DNA of 64,000 bases from a virus, in the IMG/VR virus record IMGVR_UViG_3300037091_000121, positions 3,203 to 67,202 of that record. One strand, given 5' to 3'. A program made the position numbers and the translations under genes. Below, in pieces: positions 4,468 to 50,302 of this stretch; positions within the stretch are counted from its first letter, which is position 1, and every line of letters starts with the position of its first letter. The notes below the pieces were generated by a model. It saw only the letters and a list, made by a program, of their open reading frames with translations. It had not been told where the DNA came from and made no database searches.

Positions 4468-4991
4468 TCTGCGTCCTCGCTAGGTGTCTTCCCACCCCTG
4501 CAGTTGCAATCCACCGCTACTCTCGTTCTGACTGGCTTCGGACCCTCCGTGCAGTCGTTCACATCCACGGCCTTCGGATACTCCTTGCCTGGCCCGAACC
4601 CGAAGATAGTGCAGTCCCAGAGGCCAAGGTTCTTGCCGTAGTCAATGAGTTCCGTGGCAGGCTTCCTCAAGTCGCCCATCTCCTGCGTCACGATATCGAA
4701 GGGTTTGGGAGTCTGATAACCATAGCCCAGATCCTTGTTTCGCATCACACACCGCCTCTCATGTCCATCTCGGTCTGTCCCAACTGTTTTTGTATAAGCG
4801 CTTATCAACCCAAACTCCGTCTTGACGAGTGGCGAAACGCATGGGCACACTCTCCCCGGTCTTCCCATCAAGAACGATAGGTCCCATAAAGACGGCGCTC
4901 AACAGTGGCCTTCTCCGTAGCGAGGATGGATCATCCTTCGTCTAGCTGGACTGCGCACTTGGCATCACCCCTCTCGGTATTACAAAAGCAT

Positions 4992-34190: not shown

Positions 34191-34295
34191 CTCCTTTGTG
34201 GTCAAACATCAGTGATGGCCTAGTCTACCGGCATGGGCCTTGGTTGTCAATCCCTCATTTTGCACCCAGTGTATAGGTATGATATGATATATGTC

Positions 34296-34661
34296 ATGGA
34301 TAAACCAACCAACGGATACCAAACAGCGATGCTCATCCGCAGGCCAGATACAGGGAGAGATCCTTGCAGCTTGTATCTGACAGTTCAGCAGACGGCAGCA
34401 ATGCGTGGCTGTCTACCCGTCAGTGTAAGAAACGCCATTGTGTCTGGTCGATTGCCTTCTTGGAGCCTTGGTGGTATATACTTAATCAACCGTGCGGACG
34501 CCGAGGATTGGGCACTTCGAAAGCCTGCCATCAGTGGCGGCGGACGAGAGGTGAAACACTCCGAGCGAAGAATTGCCAAGCTGCAACGCGCTGCTGCTTC
34601 TCGGGCCTTGAAAGATGGCCGAACCAGTGAACGCGCTCACCGGACTAAAGAAGACGCATGA
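34296..34661 (+). CDS. Excisionase-like HTH DNA-binding protein (start uncertain)
   Basis: YLTVQQTAAMRG....VRNAIVSGRLPSW.LGGIYLINR. Confidence 0.7.
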   Translation: MDKPTNGYQTAMLIRRPDTGRDPCSLYLTVQQTAAMRGCLPVSVRNAIVSGRLPSWSLGGIYLINRADAEDWALRKPAISGGGREVKHSERRIAKLQRAAASRALKDGRTSERAHRTKEDA

Positions 34662-34900
34662 GCTACCAGAGACCCCATAATGAGCCTGCCCGCCCCCAGA
34701 GCATCCGCAACAGCATCACATATGAACCTGACCGCCAAAACATGCCGGTTCAAAAGTGCTGTAGGGTCCCTCGGTGGGTGTCAGAGGCAATCCTCCAATT
34801 CGCAGAGATCCACAATCAAAGTGAATCGGCCGTGATGAGAACAGCGTTAATGGACTTTGCTTCAGGGTTGCTTGAAAACAAGGACAGGGTTGAGCCGTGA
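34658..34900 (+). CDS. Ribbon-helix-helix-like regulator
   Basis: CRVPRWVSEAILQFAE...SESAVMRTALMDF. Confidence 0.55.
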   Translation: MSYQRPHNEPARPQSIRNSITYEPDRQNMPVQKCCRVPRWVSEAILQFAEIHNQSESAVMRTALMDFASGLLENKDRVEP

Positions 34901-34985
34901 TTGCTCAACCCTGTCCTTCCATACCCTGCCCGACCGGGCCACACCAGACCTAGCCATTCCCCGCCCCGCCCAGCCATTCCGTACC
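34880..34985 (-). ncRNA. Family-1 pentamer guide-like RNA A (13 GGH-NN units + 16-bp hairpin)
   Basis: GGTac GGAat GGCtg GGCgg GGCgg GGAat GGCta GGTct GGTgt GGCcc GGTcg GGCag GGTat. Own promoter 35023-34995; hairpin 34918-34880. Confidence 0.85.
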
Positions 34986-35019
34986 CAACACTATAGTATA
35001 CCTAGATGAGGGTTGGTTG

Positions 35020-35667
35020 TCAATCCCTCAAAATCTCACAACTGCAAACCTGAAACCGTCCATAGCTAGGGCGAAAATCACCCACTCCGACCAGCTTTCC
35101 CGCTTGTGTAAGCACATCCCGAAGCACTTGCGGTTCGATATACTCTGGCGTCAACACAAGGAAGATGACTTTCGCCCTCCAACCTTTCTCAACCGCCGGC
35201 CGCTGCCGTGTGATGCCGTTACGCTGAACCACAACTCGGCGCTGATCGAGATAGCTCCAATCCGAGAGGGTTTTACCCGCCAGAGTGATAGGAGCCAGTT
35301 CGGTTTCCACAATCAGACCTGCTTTGAAGAGATCCATTGCGCTCTTTCTTGGTGAGCGAGGGTCTTGCCGAAACTTGGCTGCCCAAACGCAAGCCATTCG
35401 CAAATACTCTCCCGGCAATGCAATCTCGCCTTTCTCCGTTCGGTATACGTAGCTGTTCACGTTGTCCGACTTCTTGGCATCGCTCCCCTTGGCTGCTTTT
35501 GACTTCTCCTCTACTGCCTCACAGTTCCACCGATGGAATAGAATGGGTGTCGTGCCCTCAACCTCCACCTCGCAGCGATAGGGAAACGCCAAAAGATCCT
35601 CTGCGCCGTTGGAAACCTCCTCCAGCGCTGGCATAACATTACGACCATTCAATTTTGTAGCTACCAT
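35020..35667 (-). CDS. RAMP/Cas7-fold-like RNA-binding protein 1 (Vipr-like), 215 aa
   Basis: VEGTTPILFH, IALPGEYLR and the Gly-rich C-terminal loop VGVGDFRPSYGRF parallel RAMP motifs. Start placed at ATG 35667 (AAAGGA RBS); the ORF-track extension is the repeat array. Confidence 0.75.
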   Translation of the reverse strand: MVATKLNGRNVMPALEEVSNGAEDLLAFPYRCEVEVEGTTPILFHRWNCEAVEEKSKAAKGSDAKKSDNVNSYVYRTEKGEIALPGEYLRMACVWAAKFRQDPRSPRKSAMDLFKAGLIVETELAPITLAGKTLSDWSYLDQRRVVVQRNGITRQRPAVEKGWRAKVIFLVLTPEYIEPQVLRDVLTQAGKLVGVGDFRPSYGRFQVCSCEILRD

Positions 35668-35691
35668 AATAGTTTTCCTTTCAAAAAACCC

Positions 35692-35826
35692 TAACCTTAC
35701 CAAACCCCACCGGACCGGGCCGAACCCTACCACTGCATGCCACGCCGCACCCTTCCGGACCATGCCGATCCTTGCCTCTCCGGGCCGCGCCTCGGCTCAC
35801 CGCACCGCTCCTCGCCACGCCACACC
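35692..35826 (-). ncRNA. Family-1 pentamer array B (27 GGH-NN units) in the leader of RAMP-like gene 1
   Basis: 25 of 27 pentamers begin GG; strict 5-nt phase. Confidence 0.85.
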
Positions 35827-35834
35827 TCTAGTGT

Positions 35835-35850
35835 TGCAAGAACAGTGCCA
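35835..35850 (-). promoter_or_regulatory. Sigma54-type (-24/-12) promoter for array B and RAMP-like gene 1
   Basis: TGGCAC-TGTTC-TTGCA, canonical spacing, 8 nt upstream of the first repeat. Confidence 0.65.
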
Positions 35851-35869
35851 ATCGACCATCTCCAGAACG

Positions 35870-35967
35870 AAAAAATAGGCCCATGGTTACACCATGGGCC
35901 TGACGGTAAAGAAGGAGTGTGTTGTGTTAAGCAAGTGGAGTATACCAGATCGAGGGTTGGTTGTCAA
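35870..35967 (-). ncRNA. Promoter-terminator-bounded ~60-nt sRNA with anti-SD core
   Basis: TTGACA-N17-TATACT (35967-35939), then CACTCCTTCTT, then hairpin AGGCCCATGG/CCATGGGCCT + U6. Confidence 0.55.
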
Positions 35968-36021
35968 CCCCTAAAAATAGGGCTTGCTTCGGCGATCTCA
36001 TCCCGGTATACTATGGTGTGA

Positions 36022-36131
36022 GGCAGGGCGTGGCGGGGACAGGCGGGGTGAGGCGCGGCCTGGTGCGACGAGGCGAGGAATGGCAAGGCATGGGTATCTC
36101 ACCCCAAGGAGAAACCCTTGGGGTGAGATAC
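36022..36131 (+). ncRNA. Family-1 pentamer guide-like RNA C (14 units + 16-bp hairpin)
   Basis: GGCag GGCgt GGCgg GGAca GGCgg GGTga GGCgc GGCct GGTgc GACga GGCga GGAat GGCaa GGCat; promoter TTGCTT-N17-TATACT at 35984-36012. Confidence 0.85.
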
Positions 36132-36154
36132 AATTATTAGGAAGGGGTCATAAA

Positions 36155-36694
36155 ATGGCTATAGATCAAAGGCATGTTGTAAACATAAACGGTAAACTTT
36201 ATCTCAAATACTCCGGTGTCCTTGAAGCGGCGACAGAGGCAGGATTGAAATCTTTGGAAGTTGAGATCATCCAGTTGCCTTGTGCAGATAATGGAAATAC
36301 AGCAGTTTGCAAAGCCATTGCTATTCTAGAGAAAGACGGGGTAGTAAGACGGTTCATAGAGATTGGAGATGCTTCTCCTCTCAACGCTTCTAAAATGGTT
36401 ATCAATGCCACAATCCGCCTTGCATCCACAAGAGCGAAAGGACGGGCGCTCCGAGATGCGGTTTGTCATGGCGAGGCTTTGAGCGATGAAATCCCAGAGT
36501 TAGAGCCAGCTCCACAGAACCGAGAGTGGACGCCGGCCAAAGAGGCAAGCCCTCTCGTTCGCGATCAGTTTTGCCAATGGGAGGGATGCGGGGTGGAACT
36601 CCCGCCGGCGGTAGTCACGTTCTCCAAAAGGAAGTATAACCTGAGTCTCTGCCGCGACCACCAGCTGGCAACGGATGCCAAGAAAGCACAATGA
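36155..36694 (+). CDS. Rad52/22-like single-strand annealing protein with C-terminal Zn-ribbon
   Basis: INGKLYLKY.G.L...GDASP.N....A.IRLASTRAKGRALRDA; start reassigned to ATG 36155. Confidence 0.65.
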   Translation: MAIDQRHVVNINGKLYLKYSGVLEAATEAGLKSLEVEIIQLPCADNGNTAVCKAIAILEKDGVVRRFIEIGDASPLNASKMVINATIRLASTRAKGRALRDAVCHGEALSDEIPELEPAPQNREWTPAKEASPLVRDQFCQWEGCGVELPPAVVTFSKRKYNLSLCRDHQLATDAKKAQ

Positions 36695-37224
36695 TGAACT
36701 GGCAAGAGAGATGTGATGCGAGGAAGCGAATAGAGACCACCTTGAGCGACGCGCTGCATTCTACTTACGCAAGAGATGCCGCCCCGCTGTGGCGAGAAAC
36801 GGCACGTCTTGCGATGGCAATGGCTGCCGAGTGCGAGGATCAGTTTCAGCAGAAGGTTGTCCTCACCATCCCTGGGGATGTGGCCAGAGACCTCTCTCCT
36901 AACCTGCGGCTGCACTGGAGAGAAAGAGCCAATAGAACCCATAGGTGGAGAGCGATGGCTCGACTAATATGGCAGTCTGAAGGAAGCGTCCGTTTTAAGC
37001 CGGGGGTTTCAATTCATATCACTGTAAGACGTGGAAGGCTGGTGGATCGAGATAATTGCATCTCGTCCTGCAAGGTCATATTAGACTCGCTGTGGGGTGA
37101 TGACGGGATGCTAGGTGCGGATGATGCAAGGTGGGTGAAGTCTATCGAGGTAATTCAGGAGACAGGTGGGAAATGGACAAAGCATCCGGAAGTCAAAGTC
37201 GAAGTGGCAGGGGAAGTCGAATAG
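36691..37224 (+). CDS. RusA-like Holliday junction resolvase
   Basis: LSPN...HW..R, DRDN....K..LDSL, DDARWV motifs. Confidence 0.65.
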   Translation: MMNWQERCDARKRIETTLSDALHSTYARDAAPLWRETARLAMAMAAECEDQFQQKVVLTIPGDVARDLSPNLRLHWRERANRTHRWRAMARLIWQSEGSVRFKPGVSIHITVRRGRLVDRDNCISSCKVILDSLWGDDGMLGADDARWVKSIEVIQETGGKWTKHPEVKVEVAGEVE

Positions 37225-37568
37225 CCCATCTGAGCAACGAGGATCTGATCGTTAAAGATGAGCCGGTTCGAATTCCTAGCCGGAAAGGTTACTCAAAGAC
37301 CAACCCTGGGCCAGTGTTCGTTTGGTTCTGCCGGAATAAGCACACGTCTAATATGCTTATCGAGGCATTGAAGCAAACTGCATATGGCGAGTGGAAATCA
37401 ACTCCCAGGCAGGCTAGATCTCACGGGAAATTCAGTGGATGCGCCTGGGTATTAAAGTCCTGGGGGCTGACAGAAGCTGAGTATAACGCCATGCAAAGGG
37501 TCGCTGTTAAGTTAGACCCTACTGCGTCGAATATGGTTTGGGATGAGGCGGGTCAGTGCTATGTTTAG
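37131..37568 (+). CDS. Hypothetical protein (true start probably near 37221)
   Basis: ORF track; contains KQTAYGEWKST, matched by guide D. Confidence 0.55.
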   Translation: MGEVYRGNSGDRWEMDKASGSQSRSGRGSRIAHLSNEDLIVKDEPVRIPSRKGYSKTNPGPVFVWFCRNKHTSNMLIEALKQTAYGEWKSTPRQARSHGKFSGCAWVLKSWGLTEAEYNAMQRVAVKLDPTASNMVWDEAGQCYV

Positions 37569-37605
37569 GGGATTGACAACCAAGGCTCATTCCGGTATAA
37601 TATGG

Positions 37606-37709
37606 TGCAAGTCCAGGCACGGCCAGGCTAGGCGGGGCGAGGATGGGCAAGGCATGGCACGGCAAGGTGAGGAGCAGCAGCTTGGATACCTAATATCCAG
37701 GCTGCTGCT
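37606..37709 (+). ncRNA. Family-1 pentamer guide-like RNA D (13 units + hairpin)
   Basis: TGCaa GTCca GGCac GGCca GGCta GGCgg GGCga GGAtg GGCaa GGCat GGCac GGCaa GGTga; promoter TTGACA-N17-TATAAT at 37573-37601; terminator hairpin + TTTT. Confidence 0.85.
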
Positions 37710-38325
37710 ATTTTCAGGCAATCAGTGCTATGTGTAGACCTACTTGGATCGACACTGGGGTCCACTATCGCGGCCGAAGGGTTGTGGTGAGTCAATACGA
37801 TGGCACGATGGCTTTACAAGACACTGGAGGAAACCTGGAGAGCGTTACAGAGGAACTGGAGGATCTTGTTACCGACATCCTGATAATGGTTGAGCAGGTT
37901 AAGTATATGGACAAGGATGTGCTTCAGCAGCAACTTGAAGATAACAGAAGTAAGGGGAATTGATATGAGTGTAATAGATCATCACGCAGAGGAGAGGTTT
38001 CATTCTATGGTTCTGCTGGCGACATCAGAACGCGTTAGGCGCATACTCACGGCTGCTCTCCGGCGTCCACCCACTCCTCGCGAGATGACCCGAGCTATGC
38101 GGGCAGCAGAGGAGAATGATATGGTGGAGAAAGGGCTATGATAACGAAGCATCAGCTTATCACTGCTTTACAGGAATGTCCTGATAATGCCCAGGTGTTC
38201 TTCTGTGTTCCGCACCCGGAGAGTGTTGAGGACTTCCTAACCGCTTACCTGGCCCAGGTGGAATACGCTCACGATGAGGACTGCACTCCGTTCATCCGGG
38301 TTTATCTAGAGTCGGAGAAGGGGCT

Positions 38326-39141
38326 ATGAAGAGCAGCTTTTTGGCGTGGGCACCATTCCTATCGTCGTCTATTATGTCAGGGATTTGGTACTTCATCGGG
38401 TGGAAAGATGGGCGTAGTTTTGAGAGAAAGAAGTTTAACAAAAAGTTCGCTCCTTGGAGAGATGTGCCCCCTGATTCCAAACGCATAGATATGACAGATA
38501 AGGTGGGGGGCTATTGTGTTAAATGGTGGAAGCCTTCCAATCGCGGCTTCACAATTTTGGAATTACTCGTAGTAGTGGCAATCATAGCGATACTTATGGC
38601 CCTTCTTTTCCCGGCTTTCGCAGCAGCAAGGAGGCGAGTGCTGCAAACGTCGTGTGCTTCCAATCTTCGTCAGCTTGGTATGGCCATCTCGATGTATGCC
38701 CAGGACCACGACGGCTATCCGCCTATTGGTGGATACAATTACATTCCTCCAGCCCCTGCCCCGCAAGTATGGAACAGGTCGGACTGGGAAGACGGCCTGG
38801 TTGCGCTTGCTTACGTCAATAATTATAATCTATTTCGATGTCCTTCTGCCTCCAACAAGGATTACCGTTCAGCTTATGGAGTGAACCGATGGATTTTAGG
38901 ATGGGGGATCTCACAGTTATTAGACGCACCACCGTTCCCTAGCAATACTCTTTTGGCTACTGAAAAACAAGGTTCCGATTGGCCGGTTTGGTTACCTACC
39001 GAGCAGACAGGGAATCCTTACTACTTCCCCTTGGACCCCCGTCATAACAATCAACTCAACATTCTTTTCGTGGATGGACACGTAGGAAAGTCCATCATAG
39101 GGGAATTGATCGAGAGCAGCAACATCATTTGGAGATGGTGA
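38326..39141 (+). CDS. Prepilin-type N-terminal cleavage/methylation protein, DUF1559/H-X9-DG family (start uncertain)
   Basis: RGFTILELLVVVAIIAILMALLFPAF..AR....SCASNLRQLG.A..MYAQD, C-terminal RHNNQLNILFVDGHV. Confidence 0.9.
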   Translation: MKSSFLAWAPFLSSSIMSGIWYFIGWKDGRSFERKKFNKKFAPWRDVPPDSKRIDMTDKVGGYCVKWWKPSNRGFTILELLVVVAIIAILMALLFPAFAAARRRVLQTSCASNLRQLGMAISMYAQDHDGYPPIGGYNYIPPAPAPQVWNRSDWEDGLVALAYVNNYNLFRCPSASNKDYRSAYGVNRWILGWGISQLLDAPPFPSNTLLATEKQGSDWPVWLPTEQTGNPYYFPLDPRHNNQLNILFVDGHVGKSIIGELIESSNIIWRW

Positions 39142-39168
39142 TTGGCACGGTTCTTGTATATACTATGG

Positions 39169-39268
39169 TGCTAGTAGGGATGTTGCAATGCCGAGATGGG
39201 TGTTGCATGGCGGGTCTGGGAATAGCAAATCACAGTAGAAGGGTGGATGTGTAGGCATCTACCCTTCT
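39169..39268 (+). ncRNA. Family-2 guide-like RNA E (12 NNY-NN units + ATCACAG + hairpin)
   Basis: TGCta GTAgg GATgt TGCaa TGCcg AGAtg GGTgt TGCat GGCgg GTCtg GGAat AGCaa ATCACAG; upstream TGGCAC-N5-TTGT and TATACT. Confidence 0.8.
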
Positions 39269-39433
39269 TATATTTTAGAGAGAAGATGGAATGAATCACC
39301 TTGTCTACCTTTGGAGGCGCTATCGGGGCCGATGCTACCGATGCGGCAGGGTTCCTCCTCGCAGCCGAGGTAGGGTCTACTGCGAGGAGTGCTTTGCCAT
39401 CATCGTGCAAGAGTTCAAGATGAGTATGTCCAA

Positions 39434-39646
39434 GTGAGTGACACACAGATCATTAAAGGAGACTGTAGGGAGGTGCTTCAAACTCTCCCATCAGAGTCGG
39501 TTCACATGGTAGTTACCTCTCCGCCATGCGGAACCGTTGGCCGCGTAGCAACCCGGCTCGGACGCCGATCCATCTTGATAGAACTCAATCTAGAGTACGC
39601 AGAAATGGCGGCCCGAAGAACTTCCCAGAAAGGACTTGGGATCTGA
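39434..39646 (+). pseudogene. Internally deleted N4/N6 DNA methyltransferase
   Basis: The N-terminal GDCREVL..LP.ESVHMVVTSPP is joined directly to the C-terminal GT...VA.RLGR..I.IELN.EY; the catalytic Y and the DPF.G motif are missing. Confidence 0.75.
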
Positions 39647-39678
39647 TGTCAAGGCGCAACCATGTGAGTTTGGTTGAG

Positions 39679-40143
39679 CTACGTGAATGTCACATCACAA
39701 ACGAAGTTGAGGCTACCTCCGACGAAAATCACAATTGTCGGGGAGGTCCCTAGCGGTAACAATAATGGGCACCCGGCCGGATTGGTTCCGGGAGGTGAAA
39801 CGGCCGGAGGGATCGGAGGTTGGTGCGGAGTTATGAGAATACCGACATCGCCTGCAGAACCCTTGAGGGTCAATTCTGGCGGTATATTTGGAAGTGGAGG
39901 GATCGGTGGGACGGTAGGGTTAGGGATGGTTGGAGGTAGCTCAAGTAGCATTGCAATGGAGCCAGTCGGAATTTGGATGACGTTATTTCCTGGAACCAAT
40001 GTGAGAGATTGATGTGAGCCGGTGAGTCCTGCCCCTGGAGTAAATCGGACAGGCAGAAGCGTTCTGTCTATTACGACCCCACCGGAGTCGATTACGGTAA
40101 CGGCAACCTTCACTTCACACAATGCACTCATTAGCTTACCCAA
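39679..40143 (-). CDS. Pro-rich hypothetical protein
   Basis: ORF track. Confidence 0.5.
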   Translation of the reverse strand: MGKLMSALCEVKVAVTVIDSGGVVIDRTLLPVRFTPGAGLTGSHQSLTLVPGNNVIQIPTGSIAMLLELPPTIPNPTVPPIPPLPNIPPELTLKGSAGDVGILITPHQPPIPPAVSPPGTNPAGCPLLLPLGTSPTIVIFVGGSLNFVCDVTFT

Positions 40144-40649
40144 GACCTTCCTTTGACGACATTTCGGATCTGTATGTTGCTAACCCCATATTCACGCCCC
40201 AGGCCCCTATACGTGACGCCTCCTGCCGAGAAGCGCTCTCGGATCTCTAAAACCTTCTTCTCATTGAGCTTTGCCGAAGGGTGCGCCTCACCTCGGCGTC
40301 TACGCTCGGGTGGGCAGTGTCCTTGAACCCACATCTCCGGGTGCCGTTGCCATATATTTCGACCCTTGGATGCGCAGTCCTTGGCGTTGTCCGATCCTGT
40401 CCCGAGGAATAGATGGGCAGGGTTACAGCAAGGCGGATTGTCGCAGCGATGCAAGACCATAAGCCTGTCGGGAATGTCACCGAACTCCAGAACCCATGCT
40501 ACCCGATGAGCGCGCCACTGTTTTCCCATAAACCTGAATCGCCCGTAGCCTTGAGGCACGCAGGCCCTCGTCCAATTCCAGCACACATCATTATCCCCAT
40601 CGGGAATGTCCACCCCGGACCAAAAATAATCAGCAGTGTTCAGTCTCAT
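40131..40649 (-). CDS. HNH homing endonuclease
   Basis: CWNWT...GYG.F...AHRVAW...VLHRCDNPPCCNPAHLFLGT..DN + HTH tail. Confidence 0.9.
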   Translation of the reverse strand: MRLNTADYFWSGVDIPDGDNDVCWNWTRACVPQGYGRFRFMGKQWRAHRVAWVLEFGDIPDRLMVLHRCDNPPCCNPAHLFLGTGSDNAKDCASKGRNIWQRHPEMWVQGHCPPERRRRGEAHPSAKLNEKKVLEIRERFSAGGVTYRGLGREYGVSNIQIRNVVKGRSWVS

Positions 40650-40690
40650 GCCTATATTGTATCACGTGAAGTGAAGCTATGTCAAGTACC

Positions 40691-43600: not shown

Positions 43601-45754
43601 GCCCGCTTTGACCGGAACAGGTTTATCTGGTTCTATAGGCGGATGAGAAGGCAGTCCAGCAGCTTCCCTTGCTTCTCTTTGCTCCTTCAGAACCTGCCAT
43701 TGGGGCTTTGGCATAGGCACATGCTCAACAGGAGGTGCCGCTGGCGCGACGTGAGGAGTCGCTGTAGGCGCTGAAGGAGGAACGGTAGGAGTAACCGTTG
43801 GTGAGGTGCCAGGAGCCGCAGGAGGGGCCTCTGGTAGCGCTGCTGGTGGATGGGGGGCATTGGTATGGGCCGGGTGAAGTGCCTCTGGGGTATGGGCTTC
43901 CGGCTGCATCCCAGGGAAGCCTTGCTCCTTGGTCCAACCCATCACCTTGTGGAAGAACCCTCTTCGGAACGCGGTTCGCTCTGGAGATGCAGTTTGGTGC
44001 AAAGGCCCCGATAGCTTCCTGTCTCGAAGGGAGTTATGTCGAAGAAGTATCTTGAGGTTTTTGTCTGCCTCCGCTATGGCCTGATCCCCAAGTTCTTTAA
44101 CCAGGTTAGGATCAACTCCCAATTTCTTTGCGTGTTCTATACCTACATCGGGTGAGTGAATATATGTGTCAATCGCATCTGCCAGCCGACTGCGGCCGTG
44201 GTTCTCGTTTCTATGGGCTGTCTCTAATGCTTCCTGCTGCGGATCATCCCCAGAGGATTTAACTACCGCGTTACGTATCTTCGTCCCCACCTTGCCAGCA
44301 GAGAGCAGGTTAGTCGCTATGTTGTTTCTTTCTGCTGCCCTTACCGTTCGGCCCTCCGCTGCTTTCTTGCCAATCCCCACCCAACCGCCCGCTACATCTA
44401 AATGACCAGCCTCTGTTGGATACTTCTCGGCAATCTTTGCACCACCCTTCGCCAATGCTTCTCCAAGGATGGGCTTGGCTACCTTTGCTATCTTACCCGT
44501 AATTGCACTTACCCCATGCCCAGTTGCCACGTTAACAGGGTTGAATTCCCAATCGAGCAGATAATCTGCTATACCTAGCGCTTTATAGGTAAGAGTGTTT
44601 CGCTTGACCCCCAATCCTTCCGCACCAACCCGGAGAGCGTTAGGAGGCACTGCGCCACCTTCAGAGACCACCTTCAGGGCTTTGCCTACCGCTTGAACAG
44701 GATTAGGACCTCCCCTTCCCTGACCTCTCTTAACCGCTGCCGATATCCCTGCAGGATAGACGCTGGCCCCCATATCAAACAATCTCTGCACCGCTCCACC
44801 GATCTTAACTGGCAGCTCGGTGGCTCTCTCAATCCTGTTTCTCGCCGGAACTGACATCCTGCCAGTGTAAGGCTCAATAGAAGCCTCTTGGGGTTCTCCT
44901 GGCTTTGGTGGAGCGGAATGTGAGGTCTGATGCGGAACACCCTGATACATTGGGGACCCAGAGTAATGCTCTCTTTCAGTAGCGGGGTCGATAATGTGCG
45001 GCGTCCCATTGATCGTCTTGTAGTATTGGATCTTGCCAGTGCGATCTCTAAACGCCCTTCCGCTTACATGAGTGGCCCCAAACGATGCCCAAGGGTATCT
45101 CCTGATCGATTGAGGGACATCAGGCGTGAACTGAACTCCAGTAGGAGACGCAGCAGCAGGAGGGGCGGTGGCTCTACTTGGCGAAGTCGGAGTGAATAGA
45201 TGACCAAATGATGTCTTTTTAGGAGTGCTAGGGGTTTTAGGAGTGCTGGGAGTAGGGGGCGGCGGAGATTCTTGTTGAGTGGGCTCTGGTGACGTGAAAA
45301 GATGCCCAAAGGTAGGAGGATCTCCAGCGCCCTTTGATCCAACAAAAAGATGGCCGAGACGGGGAGGATCTCCAACACCTTGACTGCCTACATAATCAAA
45401 GTGTACCGGATCGACTTCCCCTGCGAACGCCCACCCATGAGGGGCAAGTATTTTAGCTAACTTCTTTTGTTCTTGTAGATTACCGCCTGCGGAGACATCC
45501 CAAGCTAGGCCCTTCTGGTGTTGGCTCTCTCCGGGTTTGGCTACAGGATTAGGGTTGTTTCCCCTGCCGGCATAGAGACGCTCTTGCATTTCGCGGGTCC
45601 GATGACCGCCGTACGGACTCATGGTCAGATTAAGGCCCGCTGCTTCAGCGTCCTTAATGCCCCGCATTGCCGCCGCCCTTGCATCTGGGTGCATACCCCG
45701 AAGCATCCCTGGCGTTATCGGCCTATTGTCATCTATACCTGGACCTGGCATCAA
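40691..45754 (-). CDS. Large internal virion/ejection protein with N-terminal M15-type peptidoglycan peptidase
   Basis: RTREMQERLY...AKPGESQHQKGLAWDV...DPVHF; 1687 aa with a low-complexity middle. Confidence 0.75.
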   Translation of the reverse strand: MMPGPGIDDNRPITPGMLRGMHPDARAAAMRGIKDAEAAGLNLTMSPYGGHRTREMQERLYAGRGNNPNPVAKPGESQHQKGLAWDVSAGGNLQEQKKLAKILAPHGWAFAGEVDPVHFDYVGSQGVGDPPRLGHLFVGSKGAGDPPTFGHLFTSPEPTQQESPPPPTPSTPKTPSTPKKTSFGHLFTPTSPSRATAPPAAASPTGVQFTPDVPQSIRRYPWASFGATHVSGRAFRDRTGKIQYYKTINGTPHIIDPATEREHYSGSPMYQGVPHQTSHSAPPKPGEPQEASIEPYTGRMSVPARNRIERATELPVKIGGAVQRLFDMGASVYPAGISAAVKRGQGRGGPNPVQAVGKALKVVSEGGAVPPNALRVGAEGLGVKRNTLTYKALGIADYLLDWEFNPVNVATGHGVSAITGKIAKVAKPILGEALAKGGAKIAEKYPTEAGHLDVAGGWVGIGKKAAEGRTVRAAERNNIATNLLSAGKVGTKIRNAVVKSSGDDPQQEALETAHRNENHGRSRLADAIDTYIHSPDVGIEHAKKLGVDPNLVKELGDQAIAEADKNLKILLRHNSLRDRKLSGPLHQTASPERTAFRRGFFHKVMGWTKEQGFPGMQPEAHTPEALHPAHTNAPHPPAALPEAPPAAPGTSPTVTPTVPPSAPTATPHVAPAAPPVEHVPMPKPQWQVLKEQREAREAAGLPSHPPIEPDKPVPVKAGFLDAYGKPITPPAKGAKPLVSLPSTAHIKPGESFSLPAQLASAKPRYGYGKKLFTLIFDNELDKSAYIVSQSKPSSADSHYMHLLRAYYPGATDEEIRAIGQQVRSHIKGLARDAEAGNLEVPKVIGEKHPPATVSEKPKLVAVKEKHATPKEKTVAKGAKTPTAEDLQKRAQQWSEKQGVETTKPTPAKKPVRQLHPEAKPPSEPVSTKTSTVEPTKTERGQSASSPTEGIPEYIQKQISRLRKNNPKQAQGIEDHWNRKLAKEAEDATVAPVETPKPALPTETPKPLQEAKTAATAPAGPMAVAKGTRSFQEMLRGVFKVDPEKAEKMAATKGITSEELKQIIAEKGPPKGTRKGSLNYFASTADRKSVPKHEHGLVQIEAPAGSEEGRRAIKSAANAQALEVADSFAKPLGKGEKPKGGWLAVPDEPKYGPLAGKQVPGPVLRAVQGISKRAVQAEQDEMVRGVKKAIQHLPSEVKRFMLTMNPTGLLTSIGSRLNQAEIGMKTANLGALRLAKPLATAGRDITNWLRKGVDTEAMRTLDEHFPTWRSSVMDQIESGAGGRSAANLAGAGKFVSIGGRRIYVPPEFTNPRDAYKAFMSTGPVAHAVADQVVKLALFEASRGKIGDEAAAQLVKDHLFDYADQPAILEALNRSGLWAFNAYPTKSMASAIRTAIRRPDLLARYPRLRRDIEAENPGSEDDREDRPRYQRGAMTVPIGKGNVVDIGRWFPFTPFLDMMQPTRPDSGGDQRTWSDKLFSIPLAGPAIYALASNRDAGTGRELHEPGSPELSTLGIYPEQWEFAKKNSPTVASLIRYASKIGKSNEGVTDSASEYAVPETRLHSLMKAFGLPVYGPPMTDARKKAMVGTLTDKFKGYGSYVQGIQKGYSSSDNPYTQQPDISSARIIDRGKLAFRMKSASNYSTQIMKAANSYDAKNQLTDDAKRKVKGAYLLYRALGDKITSLTKQSGG

Positions 45755-45758
45755 TCCC

Positions 45759-47852
45759 CTATCGTCCCTTTGGAGCCCCGACGACCACTTTCTCGCCGTC
45801 CACCTCCATCCAGTAGCTTTTCCCTCCGATCCTGGCTATCCCTCGGTTTCCAGTAGTCCCCCAGACGTTTGTTACCCCCTTGGGGAAGGATAGCCCCTTC
45901 CACTCCCCTGGCACTCTTGACGAGAAATTGATTGTCTCGTTATTGGCGACAGCGTTTCTCCTGAACTCTTTGTCCGTCATCTTGGCGGTGGGGGCGCTTG
46001 GCGCTGCTGTCTGGGCACCCATGCCAAGGTGATTCTTCTTGATCCGAGTTATGAGGTCTGAAAAGTAAGGTTTTGATTTCCCATCAAGACCCTTAAGGAT
46101 ATCTGTAGACGAAATTCCTCTACCTATGAACGCCTGCCATACCTGCCACTCATTGCTCCCTTTCTTGAATGGGTTTGGTTCAGCCCTAGTCTTATCCCAT
46201 AGCGAGGCATCAATACCTTTCGGAGCCGGAACATTCAGCTTGGGGGAGAAATCTTGCCCTTGATAGGTATACTTTGCTCTGTCTTCAGGAGGAAGAGGCT
46301 TTCCTACTGCCCTGGCAGGAGATGCAGTTGCTCGTGCTGGATGTGCCGATCTAGGCGTAGCCTCGGTTCCTGGGAATGCCGGAACAGCAGTGTCCTTCGT
46401 CACTGGAGGAAGGACAGGAGGGCCACCAGCCGCCCTTCTCGGTGCAGTAGCCCCTTGCTTCGGCTGATTCGCTTGGTAGTATGCATAGTCCAGCTTCGTC
46501 TTCACCGAGTCCTTCAGATCCTCTCGCTGCGACGGAGTAGAACGCTCCCATACTCGCTTGAACGCCCCTGCTCTTGCCTTTATACCGTCAGGAGTAGCCG
46601 GGTCATAGTCCGGGGCTGGAGGCTGCTGGAAACCTTGCGAGTGCATACCAGTAAGTATCTTCATCGCAGAGGTGCGTTCCTTGCTAGTACTGCCCTTCGT
46701 TCCCGGAGCCGTCATCGCAGCTCCCATATTGCGATGGAGATACTTCTGGAGCCCAGGGTCCATAGTTAGACCAGCAGCCTTATATACTGCATGTAATTTC
46801 CTGATCTTGGAGGCTCTCACATCCGGGTCCATCGCCAGGAGCTTTTTCTCGTCACCTAGCTGGCTCTCCAGTTTGGATGCTTCCCTGCCCGCTGCTGCCT
46901 TCTGGTCAATCCCGGATCTGCCTCTAGGGTGGGCCTCTCGATACCGATCTGACCTTTCGCGCTCTCTTTGCCCTTGCTGTGCCACATCTAGATGGCCTCT
47001 GCCTAACTCAACCTGGGCATCTCTATACCCTTGTACAGCCCTAGCGTTGATCTCTGCGTCCGAAAGCCTTTCGCCAAACAGCTTCTTTTCGTATGCCCTC
47101 CAGTCTTGCAGGTTCATCTGCGCCTTTTCAGCATTAGAGAGACGCTTATCAGCACGCTTTGCTGCTGCTTCTGCTGCTGTCTGCTTCACCGTTGGCTGGG
47201 TGGCAATGGGAGCCTTTAATCTGGAAGGGGTTACAGGTGCGGGTGGAGTAAAAGTGGCGGTTGCTGGCGAAACGCCGTCTGTGGCTGGAGGAGGCGTTCC
47301 TGTAATCGAAGGAGGAGGTGCCGGAGTAGAGGTTGTATCATACATTCCTTCCGTTCCAGAAATGTTTAGACCTCGGGCCTTCCCTTTCCAGGTCTCCGCT
47401 TCAGCGTCAGCCTGATCTGCAAGGCCATTGTAGTATTCCTGGTATTTTTGTCTATCAGCAGGAGCCATACCCATTACCTGGGCAGATACTGCCATCTCTC
47501 GGTAATGTCTCGATGCAAGCCCTGATTGGTTGGCGCCATTCGTGTAACGTCCTAATAGAGTATCATTAGTTCTATCGGTTTCACCTTTAACACGACGCTT
47601 CTCTTCCTCACCCTGGTATGTAACCCGATCCGCTTCTGCCTTCTGCTGATCTGCTATCCTTTGCTTCTCAATCTCTCTCATGGAATCGACGTTCTTCTGC
47701 GCCTGAAGCTGCCTCGCTGCTTCTTGGTTCTTCTCTGCCTCCGCTTGTTGCTGTTGGGCCTGTGCCTGTTCCCCCATGGCCTTGCCGACCATGAGGCCCT
47801 GAGTCACCTGGGCAGCGGCACTGAGGAAGGACGATAATCCAATTGACGCCAT
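45759..47852 (-). CDS. Putative ejection protein
   Basis: Gln/Ala coiled-coil N-terminus; lies next to the large virion protein. Confidence 0.55.
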   Translation of the reverse strand: MASIGLSSFLSAAAQVTQGLMVGKAMGEQAQAQQQQAEAEKNQEAARQLQAQKNVDSMREIEKQRIADQQKAEADRVTYQGEEEKRRVKGETDRTNDTLLGRYTNGANQSGLASRHYREMAVSAQVMGMAPADRQKYQEYYNGLADQADAEAETWKGKARGLNISGTEGMYDTTSTPAPPPSITGTPPPATDGVSPATATFTPPAPVTPSRLKAPIATQPTVKQTAAEAAAKRADKRLSNAEKAQMNLQDWRAYEKKLFGERLSDAEINARAVQGYRDAQVELGRGHLDVAQQGQRERERSDRYREAHPRGRSGIDQKAAAGREASKLESQLGDEKKLLAMDPDVRASKIRKLHAVYKAAGLTMDPGLQKYLHRNMGAAMTAPGTKGSTSKERTSAMKILTGMHSQGFQQPPAPDYDPATPDGIKARAGAFKRVWERSTPSQREDLKDSVKTKLDYAYYQANQPKQGATAPRRAAGGPPVLPPVTKDTAVPAFPGTEATPRSAHPARATASPARAVGKPLPPEDRAKYTYQGQDFSPKLNVPAPKGIDASLWDKTRAEPNPFKKGSNEWQVWQAFIGRGISSTDILKGLDGKSKPYFSDLITRIKKNHLGMGAQTAAPSAPTAKMTDKEFRRNAVANNETINFSSRVPGEWKGLSFPKGVTNVWGTTGNRGIARIGGKSYWMEVDGEKVVVGAPKGR

Positions 47853-47863
47853 TTCAAATCACC

Positions 47864-49015
47864 TCAAGATGGAAACTGAAGCCCACCTGGCATTGACAGT
47901 CTGTTCAGCATAGCCTCTTGGGGGCGCCTAGTCTGGTTCCGAACGGAATTTTCACCACCTGGCTCATTGCCTCTTGCGCCGGCGCCTTGCATACCGGGAG
48001 GGCTCTGTGGAGAAGCCATCCCTGACGCGGTGTATCCAGGCAGGGGCATCGCAGGGGCATCACCAGCCCCGGCGCTAGATGGCTTGCGCTTCCTTTTCGG
48101 CTTATCTTTGCTCTTGGCCTTCAGCTTCGCCATGTCCAGGTGGTGAGCGATGATCTGATGGATAATGCTCATCGCGTGCATCATCGGATCGTGTTTCGGC
48201 TGGGGCTGTGCAGGGGCATCTCCTGCACCTGCCATACCCTGCCCCAGGTTCCACATACTTGTATCATGCGGGTTCATTCCACCACCAGCGCCAGGAGGGT
48301 TTAGAGAACCAGCCGTTCCGTTAGGAGAACCTGCTCCACCCTGCAAAGAGGCGAACGGATCGTATGGTTGCGGGATAGGGTTGGTGGAAGGGAAAGGGCT
48401 AGCGTTACCTGCACTGACCGCATCTGATGAGGATGTGCCGTCAGGAACCTCACCCCCACCCTTGTTCGCCTTGTTGTAAGCATACGCCTGCGCTACCCCA
48501 GACAGCGATTGGCCGAGATTGTTAGGAGGTGTAGCCCCTGGCCCACTCGCCATATTGTAAGCCTGCTGGTTCACTCCAGAAGCCTCTAGGAGCGCACTCC
48601 TCCGGGCCGCGATAGCGTCAGCCATGTGTTGTTCGCCGAGCGCCATTCTGTTCGACGCATCATTCTGCTGAAGATTAGCCATTTGGTCATTAGCACCACC
48701 AGTGGATACTCCACTGGGATTACCAAATGCGGAAAGCGAATTAACATTGGAACGCTCTGCTTGGCCTTGAATTCCTTGTGATTGTGCCAAAGAGTTTAAA
48801 TCTTGTTGGTTGCTCATTGGCGAGGAGGTGCCGTAGTTGTATAGCTGGTTGGCTATCGCTCTCTGCTGCTTTAGGGCTGCCTGCTGCGCCGCAGACATCT
48901 GCCCGCCGCCGCCTCCTAGAAGGCCCGCGAAACCAGACAGGGCAGCCCCTACGGGGCCTCCCGTGGCGAAACCAGCACCAGCACCCAAAATACCACCTAC
49001 TGGGCTTACAGGCAT
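47864..49015 (-). CDS. Putative ejection/pilot protein
   Basis: Gly-rich N-terminus GGILGAGAGFATGGPVGAAL..AGLLGG and Gln/Asn-rich body. Confidence 0.6.
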   Translation of the reverse strand: MPVSPVGGILGAGAGFATGGPVGAALSGFAGLLGGGGGQMSAAQQAALKQQRAIANQLYNYGTSSPMSNQQDLNSLAQSQGIQGQAERSNVNSLSAFGNPSGVSTGGANDQMANLQQNDASNRMALGEQHMADAIAARRSALLEASGVNQQAYNMASGPGATPPNNLGQSLSGVAQAYAYNKANKGGGEVPDGTSSSDAVSAGNASPFPSTNPIPQPYDPFASLQGGAGSPNGTAGSLNPPGAGGGMNPHDTSMWNLGQGMAGAGDAPAQPQPKHDPMMHAMSIIHQIIAHHLDMAKLKAKSKDKPKRKRKPSSAGAGDAPAMPLPGYTASGMASPQSPPGMQGAGARGNEPGGENSVRNQTRRPQEAMLNRLSMPGGLQFPS

Positions 49016-49079
49016 CTTGCGCCTCCTCCAAAACTAGAGGGGTTGACAATCAACCCCCACCCCGGTATACTCCATTGTT

Positions 49080-49173
49080 CTACAATCGATGCATGTCATG
49101 GCTCTGAAACGCCTTGCCGGTCCAGGAACGGCAAATCACAGCGGATGGGTTAGGGTTTTCCCTTTCCCATCCG
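49080..49173 (+). ncRNA. Family-2 guide-like RNA F
   Basis: Promoter 49043-49071; ATCga TGCat GTCat GGCtc TGAaa CGCct TGCcg GTCca GGAac GGCaa ATCACAG + CGGATGGG/CCCATCCG hairpin. Confidence 0.75.
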
Positions 49174-49872
49174 AACCTTCATCAATGCTGGAGACGACTC
49201 CGCCCGCTCTCTCTTGATGTTAAGTTCGAACGGCTTTGGCTCTGGTGCCTGCCTTGGCTCTGACCGAGGAGGCATATCATTCGATACCGTCGGTCGCTCT
49301 CTCCCTGCTTTGGCAGGATTGGCTTCAGGAGACTTCAAGGTCATAAACGGGTTCAGAGACCTTGGCTTCCCGATTGGCTTCAATGACTTCTCGTTAGGGA
49401 GGTAAGCCTTCGGGCCACCAGGGCCACCTCGCTTACGGGGCGATTCCGGGTTGTTGCTAGGGATCTTCGCTGACGGTTTTTTCCTTCTGGTGTAAACTCT
49501 TGGAGTTGTTTCTGGCGTTAGGGCTTGAACCCCTCCGGTCAATGGCACGGGCGGATCTCCTGACCCAAAAGACACAGGCTTGACCACTGGCTTTCGCCCT
49601 TTCGTTTGACCTAGAGGCTTGTTAAGCAAAGGGGCACTTACTTTTCCAAAACCACCCCTTGTAGGATGAAGACCTTTAGGACCGTTTGGCCCTGGCGGCT
49701 TCATGGCGGGCGCATCGCCAACCCCAGACATCCGACCAAGCACTGACTTCACCTCGGCAGGCTTGCCCTTGACTTTGACGGATAGCTTATTACTATCCTC
49801 TGGCTTCTTCTTGGTGGCTGGTCGCTTCGGGCTTCCGAAGTCTGTTGGTGCTGGCATAGTGGCCCTCCTCAT
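49150..49872 (-). CDS. Basic Lys/Pro-rich protein (start probably ATG ~49857)
   Basis: GAGGAGG RBS before MPAPTDFG; shares the GxGD[AP]P motif with the ejection proteins. Confidence 0.6.
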   Translation of the reverse strand: MRRATMPAPTDFGSPKRPATKKKPEDSNKLSVKVKGKPAEVKSVLGRMSGVGDAPAMKPPGPNGPKGLHPTRGGFGKVSAPLLNKPLGQTKGRKPVVKPVSFGSGDPPVPLTGGVQALTPETTPRVYTRRKKPSAKIPSNNPESPRKRGGPGGPKAYLPNEKSLKPIGKPRSLNPFMTLKSPEANPAKAGRERPTVSNDMPPRSEPRQAPEPKPFELNIKRERAESSPALMKVRMGKGKP

Positions 49873-50030
49873 ACATTATACTCCAAACTGGCACTTGACA
49901 CCAAGGGGCACCCCCGGTATACTCTCCCTGCCTGACAACCAAGGCATTGTCTGGATCTACAATGCAATGCCCGGTGAGGTTCTGCCCTTCAGAGCAGAGC
50001 AACTCAAATCACAGGAGGGCTTCAGCCCTC

Positions 50031-50077
50031 ATAATGCGGCAACTCGGTGGCAAGCCCGAGGGAGGACGCAGAGCCAA
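50031..50077 (+). ncRNA. Twister-like self-cleaving ribozyme 1
   Basis: UAA-UGCG-GC-AA-CUCGG-U-GGC-AA-GC-CCGAG-...-CGCA-GAGCC: P2 UGCG/CGCA, P4 CUCGG/CCGAG, pseudoknots GG/CC and GC/GC. Confidence 0.8.
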
Positions 50078-50156
50078 GAATCAGGCGTTCCTGGGCAGGT
50101 CACGTCGTTGATCGGCTCTGCAGGGCGCAGTCAATCACAGGTGGCCTTCGGGCCAC

Positions 50157-50203
50157 ATAATGCGGCTAACCAGTGGCAAGCCTGGTGGAAGACGCAGAGC
50201 CAA
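50157..50203 (+). ncRNA. Twister-like self-cleaving ribozyme 2
   Basis: Same core with compensatory P4 ACCAG/CUGGU. Confidence 0.8.
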
Positions 50204-50302
50204 AACCTTGTCTGGCCGGGTCCTGTTGGGTCTAGCGATGCGAGGCGAGTCAAATCACAGGAGGGATGGAAACATCCCTCAACTTCCTTCTAAGGAGACA
50301 AA

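What the first reader, a model, noticed from the sequence alone, without database searches (positions are those of the whole stretch)
34461..50030. The variable dinucleotides form a gapped code that spells out the neighbouring gene
Writing each unit's NNs as NNx gives codon positions 1-2 of the sense strand of a nearby gene. D (AA CA AC CA TA GG GA TG AA AT AC) matches 37371-37403 KQTAYGEWKST at 9/11. E (TA GG GT AA CG TG GT AT GG TG) matches 38875-38904 YGVNRWILGW at 8/10. C units 2-12 match 36461-36493 VCHGEALSDEI at 8/11. B units 1-13 match 36218-36256 VLEAATEAGLKSL at 8/13. G1 matches 49464-49432 IPSNNPESPRK at 7/11. A matches 34461-34499 (GGIYL..R) at 5/13. A random dinucleotide matches about 1 time in 16, so repeated hits within ~600 bp of each unit are very unlikely by chance. 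The skipped base is always the wobble position, which would make targeting immune to ordinary synonymous escape.
Basis: partly seen in the sequence, partly recalled or inferred. Interest (0 to 1): 0.97.

Follow-up and report, generated by a model that had tools for sequence, protein, structure and literature searches.

The report
Phage VIPR guide RNAs, gapped code
The five-base repeat tracts are guide RNAs of a phage VIPR system, a CRISPR-like DNA silencer first described in 2026, and their two variable letters per repeat do spell stretches of neighbouring genes codon by codon, though imperfectly, as expected if the real targets are rival phages' copies.

Summary
All six match counts are exact. 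An unbiased scan of both strands and all frames puts the best genome-wide match of arrays C, D, E and G1 in the adjacent gene, on the sense strand, at codon positions 1-2. Local shuffle p: D and E <=0.0005, C and G1 0.003, B 0.028. A, F, G2 and G3 are at chance. Only a 3-base target period works.

This is not new. It is the published VIPR system: a Vipr RAMP protein plus GGY/NN vrRNAs, a "1-nt skip" rule, and a skipped base that falls on the wobble position (bioRxiv 10.64898/2026.04.26.720920). The 215-aa protein family here matches PDB 36pp "SUSP1 Vipr protein" at E=5.7e-11.

This scan has already noted VIPR in at least 40 other genomes.

The resident genes are only near-cognate: full-length identity is 0.52-0.77, below the papers' 0.80 cut-off. 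A homologue of D's target gene fits the guide better, 10/11 against 9/11. In related phages, guides match rivals better than the adjacent resident copy. The guide-beside-mismatched-allele layout was not found in the parts of the VIPR papers I read.

The parts
35020..35667 (-). vipr1: Vipr (RAMP/Cas7-like) protein, 215 aa
   Evidence: A 25-sequence family profile (A3) hits PDB 36pp_D 'SUSP1 Vipr protein' at E=5.7e-11 over profile positions 31-202. The single sequence gives E=2.6e-4. The AF2 model (pLDDT 80.9) matches Csm3 and type VII Cas7 chains at E~4e-6, TM~0.5. It also matches phrog_4652 and has no Pfam hit.
34872..35023 (-). vrRNA A: promoter (from 35023), 16 NNGGY units (34992 down to 34913), 16-bp hairpin and U run
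   Evidence: Promoter scan, units, fold z=-4.6. No local gapped match above chance, p=0.41.
35689..35850 (-). vrRNA array B: 28 NNGGY units (35828 down to 35689) in the leader of vipr1, behind a sigma-54-like TGGCAC-N5-TTGCA element (35850 down to 35835)
   Evidence: Units. The sigma-54-like element was read by eye, and its consensus is recalled, not tested. Units 1-13 match 36218-36256 at 8/13, local p=0.028.
35984..36131 (+). vrRNA C: promoter (by eye), 16 units at 36015-36094, hairpin at 36094-36131, directly upstream of ORF 36155-36694
   Evidence: fold z=-5.8. Matches 36461-36493 at 8/11, local p=0.003.
36155..36694 (+). Near-cognate gene for guides B (36218-36256) and C (36461-36493); 179 aa, no Pfam family
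   Evidence: The family has 1946 hits at E<=0.001 among 50%-identity representatives.
37131..37568 (+). Near-cognate gene for guide D (site 37371-37403); no Pfam or PHROG family
   Evidence: 9/11 units match, sense strand, phase 0. The only homologue found, P0122 (79% identity over the BLASTP local alignment; 75% in the alignment), carries Q where the resident has A, which fits guide unit CA and gives 10/11.
37573..37709 (+). vrRNA D: consensus promoter 37573-37601, 14 units at 37604-37673, 16-bp hairpin to 37709
   Evidence: fold z=-4.6. 0 of 200 genome-wide shuffles and 0 of 2000 local shuffles reach its hit.
38326..39141 (+). Near-cognate gene for guide E (site 38875-38904): prepilin-type N-terminal methylation motif plus DUF1559 protein
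   Evidence: Pfam PF07963 and PF07596. 8/10 units match. Homologues P0124 and P0125 carry V-M where the resident has I-L, fitting guide units GT and AT.
39143..39268 (+). vrRNA E: degenerate-repeat guide (13 units at 39167-39231) ending in AAAUCACAG plus a 14-bp hairpin
   Evidence: fold z=-4.6. Local p<=0.0005.
49043..49150 (+). vrRNA F: promoter 49043-49071, 13 degenerate units at 49073-49137, same AAAUCACAG tail
   Evidence: No local match, p=0.75.
49150..49872 (-). Near-cognate gene for guide G1 (site 49464-49432); 240 aa, no Pfam family
   Evidence: 7/11 units match, including a run of six, sense strand, phase 0. No Pfam hit.
49895..50283 (+). Promoter plus three guides G1, G2, G3 (degenerate units), separated by two twister-P5-like elements at 50010-50059 and 50136-50185
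   Evidence: Rfam Twister-P5 scores 27.0 bits (E=0.0068) and 23.2 bits (E=0.065), both below the gathering score of 37.6. G1 local p=0.003; G2 0.53; G3 0.63.
50303..50908 (+). vipr2: distant Vipr paralogue, 201 aa
   Evidence: hhalign against the Vipr1 family gives probability 71%, E=3.8e-5, 166 columns. Against 36pp_D the match is weak, E=0.74. The AF2 model (pLDDT 71.9; built on an alignment made of Vipr1-family rows) matches type VII Cas7 and Csm3 at E~1e-6.

Best explanation
The region carries two VIPR (Viral Interference Programmable Repeat) systems of an uncultured 67-kb phage.

Mechanism, taken from the published work: Vipr protomers polymerise along a vrRNA built of 5-nt units. Each protomer sequesters the conserved GGY triplet and presents the two variable bases. 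The presented dinucleotides pair with one strand of double-stranded DNA while every third target base is flipped out, giving a gapped R-loop that blocks transcription. This is the '1-nt skip' code.

Shown here: the proteins, the RNA architecture, and the period-3, wobble-skipping matches.

Inferred: all five significant guides read like the coding strand, so they would pair with the template strand.

The adjacent genes they spell are near-cognate, not perfect. I think it most likely (about 0.6) that each guide is aimed at the allele of that gene carried by rival phages. On this reading the resident copy, mismatched at 2-5 units of the matched block and at more units over the full guide, is spared. 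Guide and spared allele would stay tightly linked so that recombination cannot produce a self-silencing genome.
For: Membership in VIPR:
- The Vipr1 family profile hits PDB 36pp 'SUSP1 Vipr protein' at E=5.7e-11.
- Both Vipr models have a Cas7/Csm3-like fold.
- 164 of 172 related loci carry NNGGx arrays. In the loci inspected, they sit beside the gene on the same strand.
- Arrays A, C and D have their own promoters, 14-16 units and a 3' hairpin.

The code:
- Only target period 3 gives hits.
- All 5 significant hits are in phase 0 on the sense strand.
- Local p-values range from <=0.0005 to 0.028.

Replication in relatives:
- Among 316 unique arrays, the best own-locus hit lies within 700 bp of the array in 21 of 35 cases with score >=5.5 (5.5 expected) and in 6 of 7 with score >=6.5 (1.4 expected).
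- 15 of those 21 skip the wobble base.

Rival-allele reading:
- No guide reaches 0.80 full-length identity to its own genome. The paper likewise reports no self-targeting hits at >=80%.
- P0122 fits guide D at 10/11 against the resident's 9/11.
- In 8 related arrays, the guide matches a rival locus at 9-12 units but the homologous site in its own locus at 6-9 units. Examples are L023 at 10/10 against 7/10 and L067 at 11/13 against 9/13.
- In all 8, the resident homologue lies 0-581 bp from the array.
- 3 of the 16 mismatched units are six-fold codon-family swaps that keep the amino acid: Leu in C, Ser and Arg in G1.
Against: - Four of the nine arrays (A, F, G2, G3) show no local match.
- In relatives, most arrays show none either: the mean own-locus best score is 4.67 against 4.46 for other loci.
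- For B and C, the resident allele is the best or joint-best fit among 149 representatives.
- For E, the rival alleles fix two mismatches but each adds one, so their total is not higher than the resident's.
- The rival-better-than-own comparison picks the best of 172 loci, so it carries a winner's-curse bias. All loci were also centred on vipr, so shared genes are near arrays by construction.
- I found no rival genome with a full-length match to any guide of this window. I could not scan public collections with the gapped patterns.
- Departures from the type II paradigm: no co-oriented vap gene beside vipr1; the tails are plain hairpins, not the SUSP1 pseudoknot; B has 28 units; the E/F/G units have a degenerate constant triplet.
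- No expression or binding data exist for this phage.
Confidence: 0.85

Rival explanations
1. Autoregulation. The guides act on the phage's own adjacent genes, with partial matches giving graded or timed repression of the neighbouring gene rather than an attack on rival phages.
For: The best match of C, D, E and G1 anywhere in the 67-kb genome is the neighbouring gene. For B and C, no better allele was found among 149 representatives. C lies in the leader of the gene it matches.
Against: Full-length identity is 0.52-0.77, below the 0.80 that the papers use for natural targets. The paper states that perturbing NN pairing abolished silencing. D's homologue fits the guide better than the resident gene does. 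In relatives, rival loci fit better than the array's own locus. The third paper reports self-match scores lower than non-self scores, read as avoidance of autoimmunity.
Confidence: 0.2
2. Historical residue. Guides arise from, or once perfectly matched, the neighbouring gene, and both have since drifted apart. The similarity would be a fossil with no present targeting role.
For: Matches are imperfect. Four of the nine arrays have no local match.
Against: No process is known that copies codon positions 1-2 into a 5-nt scaffold. The arrays keep intact promoters, register and hairpins. Guides in relatives match other phages at 10/10 and 12/15, which drift would not produce.
Confidence: 0.07
3. 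Chance or composition. G-rich dinucleotides resemble common codon starts, so in-frame matches appear without any real relationship.
For: A's 5/13 match is at chance, p=0.41. Background top hits also favour wobble-skipping frames slightly, 116 of 270.
Against: Shuffling unit order preserves composition, yet gives 0 of 2000 shuffles reaching the observed score for D and for E. Top hits cluster within 700 bp in independent phages, 21 of 35 against 5.5 expected. Other target periods fail.
Confidence: 0.01

Closest known systems
Type II VIPR of Escherichia phage SUSP1 and the Pseudomonas fulva prophage (bioRxiv 10.64898/2026.04.26.720920; structures in 10.64898/2026.04.26.720927; PDB 36pp)
   Same: A small RAMP protein (~20 kDa). 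vrRNAs of GGY/NN pentamers with a structured 3' end. One-base skip on the target, with the skip on the wobble base. No self hit at >=80% identity. Phage-borne.
   Different: The protein is only remotely related (profile E=5.7e-11). The tails are simple, sequence-diverse hairpins. No vap gene is co-oriented with vipr1. The guides are scattered as single genes with their own promoters, each beside a near-cognate resident gene. I could not assign a VIPR type, because the classification data are in supplements I could not open.
Solo/orphan vrRNAs of F5 satellites and VIPR-null SUSP1-like phages (bioRxiv 10.64898/2026.10.15.759431, section 8)
   Same: Stand-alone vrRNA genes lying away from vipr. 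Self-match is lower than non-self match, read there as avoidance of autoimmunity.
   Different: Here the solo guides sit in a phage that does carry vipr. They lie next to protein-coding genes that they nearly spell, whereas in that paper solo guides target vipr genes, other vrRNAs, satellites or host repeats.
Ribozyme-interspersed vrRNA arrays (hammerhead; legend of fig. S19 of 10.64898/2026.04.26.720920)
   Same: Guides in one transcript are separated by small self-cleaving-ribozyme-like elements.
   Different: The elements here resemble twister-P5, not hammerhead, and score below Rfam's gathering threshold. 'Twister' has 0 occurrences in that paper's main text.
Class 1 CRISPR backbone proteins (Csm3 / Cas7, type III and type VII)
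   Same: RRM/RAMP fold. According to the papers, a thumb breaks the guide-target duplex periodically.
   Different: No CRISPR repeat-spacer array is present. The period is 5 nt with 3 bases sequestered, against 6 nt with 1 flipped. The guide information is non-contiguous.

Membership tests
VIPR system | Vipr protein: a minimal RAMP homologous to published Vipr | tested here: met
   Profile A3 against PDB 36pp_D 'SUSP1 Vipr protein' gives E=5.7e-11, nearly full length. Foldseek hits Csm3/Cas7 at E~4e-6. For vipr2: hhalign probability 71%, E=3.8e-5.
VIPR system | vrRNA made of tandem YNNGG / GGY-NN pentamers (9-16 units in the paper) flanking vipr | tested here: met
   A has 16, C 16 and D 14 units in strict 5-nt register. 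B has 28 units, outside the stated range. E, F and G keep the register but have a degenerate triplet. Arrays occur in 164 of 172 related loci.
VIPR system | Structured, conserved 3' tail capping the repeat tract | tested here: inconclusive
   A, C, D and E each end in a 14-16-bp hairpin. E, F and G share an AAAUCACAG motif. The hairpins of A, C and D differ in sequence. The SUSP1-type pseudoknot was not looked for.
VIPR system | Targets follow the 1-nt skip rule (NNx) | tested here: met
   Periods 2, 3, 4, 5 and 6 were tested. Only period 3 gives local hits that no distant position reaches.
VIPR system | Skipped base aligns with the codon wobble position | tested here: met
   5 of 5 significant hits in the window. 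15 of 21 strong local hits in related loci.
VIPR system | No self-targeting at >=80% NN identity | tested here: met
   The best full-length identity to the phage's own genome is 0.52-0.77 across the nine arrays.
VIPR system | Accessory vap gene next to vipr | tested here: inconclusive
   No co-oriented ORF follows vipr1; array A does. An ORF follows vipr2 (50836/50908-51417) but has no Pfam family. The relative DSL-LC04 has an ORF overlapping the vipr stop.
VIPR system | vrRNA expressed and bound by Vipr; RNP binds dsDNA and represses transcription | not testable with these tools
   No RNA or biochemical data for this phage. Inferred from the papers.
CRISPR-Cas (class 1) | Repeat-spacer array with contiguous spacers | tested here: not met
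   No repeat-spacer array appears in the tandem-repeat scan, and no CRISPR RNA family appears in Rfam. The guide information is non-contiguous.

The most novel reading that the evidence does not exclude
In this Vipr clade, guide genes and the mismatched resident allele of the gene they attack are inherited as linked 'killer plus immune allele' cassettes scattered through the phage genome. On co-infection, the rival allele is silenced. Recombinants survive only if they take the guide and the resistant allele together. VIPR would then drive allele replacement as well as repression. An extreme form is seen in relatives L120 and L074, where a guide array is embedded in frame inside the vipr ORF itself and spells a conserved motif of rival vipr genes.
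Probability: 0.5. Interest if true: 0.6.

Novelty: new member of a known kind. Interest (0 to 1): 0.4.

Why it matters
The gapped, wobble-skipping code was reached from raw sequence alone and matches the mechanism published in 2026.

The added value is the layout. Guides sit within a few hundred bases of a near-cognate resident gene, while better-matching alleles sit in other phages. If that layout is general, it says how phages avoid VIPR autoimmunity, and it suggests that guide and immune allele form a selfish linked unit.

The window also offers two apparently separate Vipr/vrRNA pairs in one genome, and twister-like processing elements between guides. Both are useful for engineering orthogonal programmable repressors.

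Tried and rejected
Searches and ideas that led nowhere:
- Rfam at gathering threshold found no family for the arrays, only two group I introns elsewhere. ARAGORN found no tRNA.
- Before finding the papers I considered a TRAP-like ring-protein sponge, G-quadruplex arrays and quintuplet decoding. I dropped these once the Vipr homology and the published mechanism were in hand. Reading D's units as NNG gives a stop codon, which also argues against translation.
- The D-target and E-target genes have no relatives in IMG/VR by the search for related loci. vipr2 has none either.
- tblastn of 12 window proteins against the 172 fetched loci found no homologue at E<=1e-4. Rival alleles of the window's own targets therefore could not be examined as DNA.
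- The closest Vipr relatives (L081, L088, L082; 84-86% amino-acid identity) share only the vipr gene with the window at the DNA level.
- blastn of 34200-39300 against GenBank phages gave one weak hit.
- Own-locus against other-locus best scores differ only slightly overall. The signal appears only when position is taken into account.
- The count is 8 of 22.
- I did not run complex prediction, sequencing-run or read-laying jobs.
- Supplements of the three VIPR papers are closed, so type assignment, repeat logos of types I and III-VII, and self-match tables were not seen.

Full report
WHAT IS THERE. The window lies in a single 67,202-bp contig. Reading 33900-39300 and 48900-50400 shows short genes for non-coding RNAs. 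Each has a consensus promoter (TTGACA-N17-TATACT), a start near AUGGUG, and a tract of 5-nt units in strict register. Each then ends in a strong hairpin (14-16 bp, fold z-scores -4.6 to -5.8).

A scan for period-5 GG found four clean arrays: A 34997-34894 (-), B 35838-35679 (-), C 36010-36099 (+) and D 37599-37683 (+). Their units are NN followed by GGC, GGT or GGA. Five more units (E, F, G1-G3) keep the 5-nt register from promoter to tail but have a degenerate constant triplet. Four of these (E, F, G1, G3) end in AAATC-ACAG plus a hairpin; G2 ends in CAATC-ACAG.

CHECK OF THE OBSERVATION.
- The top genome-wide hit of C, D, E and G1 is the adjacent gene. For D, 0 of 200 unit-order shuffles reach its score genome-wide.
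- With +1/-0.7 scoring, no position more than 1 kb away reaches the local score for C, D, E or G1. B's local hit has an expectation of 0.027.
- Local shuffles (2000 each, +-1 kb) give p<=0.0005 for D and E, 0.003 for C and G1, and 0.028 for B. A, F, G2 and G3 give 0.41, 0.75, 0.53 and 0.63.
- Target periods 2, 4, 5 and 6 and unit positions 2-3 give nothing comparable. Positions 5-1 give weak local hits (score 5.3) for F and G2 only. Other registers give no local hit for C, D, E or G1.

Five of the six claimed matches are therefore real. A's is not distinguishable from chance.

WHAT IT IS. [quoted passage not shown] I read its abstract, all of Results, the Discussion, methods sections 26 and 27, and passages around search terms. 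It describes VIPR as follows:
- a ~20-kDa RAMP protein (Vipr);
- vrRNAs of 9-16 YNNGG repeats;
- recognition of double-stranded DNA by the NN dinucleotides with one skipped base per unit;
- targets on either strand;
- transcriptional repression;
- natural targets in competing phages and satellites.

The companion cryo-EM paper (10.64898/2026.04.26.720927; abstract and section 6) shows how this works. The thumb of each protomer displaces the three GGY bases on the guide and one base on the target.

A third preprint (10.64898/2026.10.15.759431; abstract and sections 8, 17 and 26, plus passages) describes solo vrRNAs. It also reports self-match scores lower than non-self scores. A fourth paper (10.64898/2026.10.21.760802) I saw only in the search listing.

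MEMBERSHIP. The 215-aa protein between arrays B and A (35020-35667, -) has no Pfam family and matches phrog_4652.
- It has 6998 relatives at E<=0.001 in the protein collection, none carrying a functional name.
- Alone, it matches PDB 36pp 'SUSP1 Vipr protein' at E=2.6e-4. A 25-sequence profile matches it at E=5.7e-11 over nearly the full length.
- Its AF2 model (pLDDT 80.9) hits Csm3 and type VII Cas7 chains.
- NNGGx arrays occur in 164 of 172 related loci fetched from viral, metagenome and genome collections. In the loci inspected, they lie beside the gene on the same strand.

A second protein (50303-50908) aligns to this family by hhalign (probability 71%, E=3.8e-5). Its model also hits Cas7/Csm3, with the caveat that the model's alignment consisted of Vipr1-family rows. 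It sits just after G1-G3. E, F and G share a tail that A-D lack. Two separate Vipr/vrRNA pairs are therefore likely, though this is an inference.

THE NEIGHBOUR IS A NEAR-COGNATE, NOT A PERFECT TARGET. Over the full guide length, nucleotide identity to the phage's own genome is 0.52-0.77 and never reaches 0.80. This fits the paper's statement that no self-targeting hit passed 80%.

All five significant guides read like the coding strand. Under the published rule they would pair with the template strand (inference).

Evidence from this window on what the guides are aimed at:
- D's gene has a single homologue in 5.8 billion proteins, P0122 (79% identity). At the matched block it reads KQTQYGEWKST where the resident reads KQTAYGEWKST. 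Q can only be CAR, which is the guide's unit at that position, so P0122 fits at 10/11 against 9/11.
- E's gene belongs to the prepilin/DUF1559 family. Homologues P0124 and P0125 carry V-M where the resident has I-L, matching guide units GT and AT. Each differs from the guide elsewhere, so their totals do not exceed the resident's.
- For B and C, the resident allele is the best or joint-best fit among 149 representatives at 50% clustering. Near alleles are not represented in that library.
- 3 of the 16 mismatched units are six-fold codon-family swaps that keep the amino acid: Leu CTN/TTG in C, Ser TCN/AGC and Arg AGR/CGT in G1. My rough expectation is about 0.6 such swaps, so this is only suggestive.

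REPLICATION IN OTHER PHAGES. From 434 detected arrays I collapsed identical sequences and dropped loci under 3 kb, leaving 316 unique arrays.
- The best own-locus period-3 hit lies within 700 bp of the array in 21 of 35 cases scoring >=5.5 (5.5 expected) and in 6 of 7 scoring >=6.5 (1.4 expected).
- 15 of those 21 skip the wobble base, 11 as sense guides and 4 as antisense guides. Among the other top hits the figure is 116 of 270.
- Overall, the own-locus mean best score barely exceeds the other-locus mean, 4.67 against 4.46 for 212 arrays. Most arrays therefore have no detectable local partner.
- Cross-locus scanning found 22 arrays with a non-self hit >=7.5. For 8 of them the targeted segment has a homologue in the source locus, always 0-581 bp from the array.
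- At that homologous site the guide matches its own locus worse than the rival: L023 10/10 against 7/10, L070 12/15 against 7/15, L067 11/13 against 9/13, L120 10/11 against 7/11, L113 10/12 against 9/12, L074 10/12 against 7/12, L068 10/13 against 6/13, L133 9/11 against 6/11.

Two caveats apply. The rival is the best of 172 loci, which biases the comparison. All loci are centred on vipr, so shared genes lie near arrays by construction. At least two of these guides (L067, L120) target vipr itself in rivals, as the papers describe.

NOVELTY. The code, the protein and the wobble logic are published. This scan has also noted VIPR in at least 40 other genomes, including notes of guides beside mismatched resident alleles. 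Those are unchecked AI notes, not independent evidence.

I did not find the guide-beside-near-cognate-gene layout in what I read of the papers. In paper 1, 'allele' has 0 occurrences and 'adjacent' has 1, which is unrelated. In paper 3, 'adjacent gene' and 'own genome' have 0 occurrences. I did not read the papers in full, and their supplements are closed.

This is a new member of a known kind, with one possibly unreported organisational feature.

Noticed in passing
window 9568-9797 and 9809-10011 (- strand): Two tandem group I introns reach Rfam's gathering score (89.3 and 63.9 bits). First-reader notes place them inside the major capsid gene.
   Followed up: no
window 50010-50059 and 50136-50185 (+): Two twister-P5-like elements lie exactly between guides G1/G2 and G2/G3. 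They score 27.0 and 23.2 bits, below the gathering score of 37.6. The VIPR paper mentions hammerhead-interspersed arrays, and 'twister' has 0 occurrences in its main text.
   Followed up: partly
L120 2714-2769 and L074 6094-6159: In two related loci, an NNGGY array of 11 or 13 units is embedded in frame inside the vipr ORF, in a variable loop, and the reading frame stays open. Its NN string matches a conserved Vipr motif in other phages at 10/11 and 10/12, against 7/11 and 7/12 in its own gene. This would be a guide hidden inside the effector's coding sequence.
   Followed up: partly
window 35850-35835 (-) and 39143-39158 (+): Sigma-54-like TGGCAC-N5-TTGCA / TTGTA elements lie just upstream of arrays B and E, seen by eye. 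The consensus is recalled and was not tested.
   Followed up: no
window 35967-35870 (-): A consensus promoter drives a short hairpin-terminated RNA with no pentamer repeats, immediately upstream of array B.
   Followed up: no
L135 1224-1280 against the array at 1570-1665: A related locus has an unusually strong self-match of 14 of 19 units, 346 bp from the array. The same guide matches L073 at 15 of 18.
   Followed up: no
L173 (GenBank OR003939.1, Phage DSL-LC04) 3998-4615: This is the only GenBank phage record with a Vipr of this clade (52% identity). It annotates the gene as a 'helix-turn-helix transcriptional regulator', and an ORF overlapping its stop may be a vap.
   Followed up: no
window 40131-40649 (-) and 52565-53092 (+): An HNH endonuclease (PF13392, E=1.9e-13) and a weak sigma-70-like protein (regions 2 and 4, all below Pfam's cut-offs) flank the region.
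   Followed up: no
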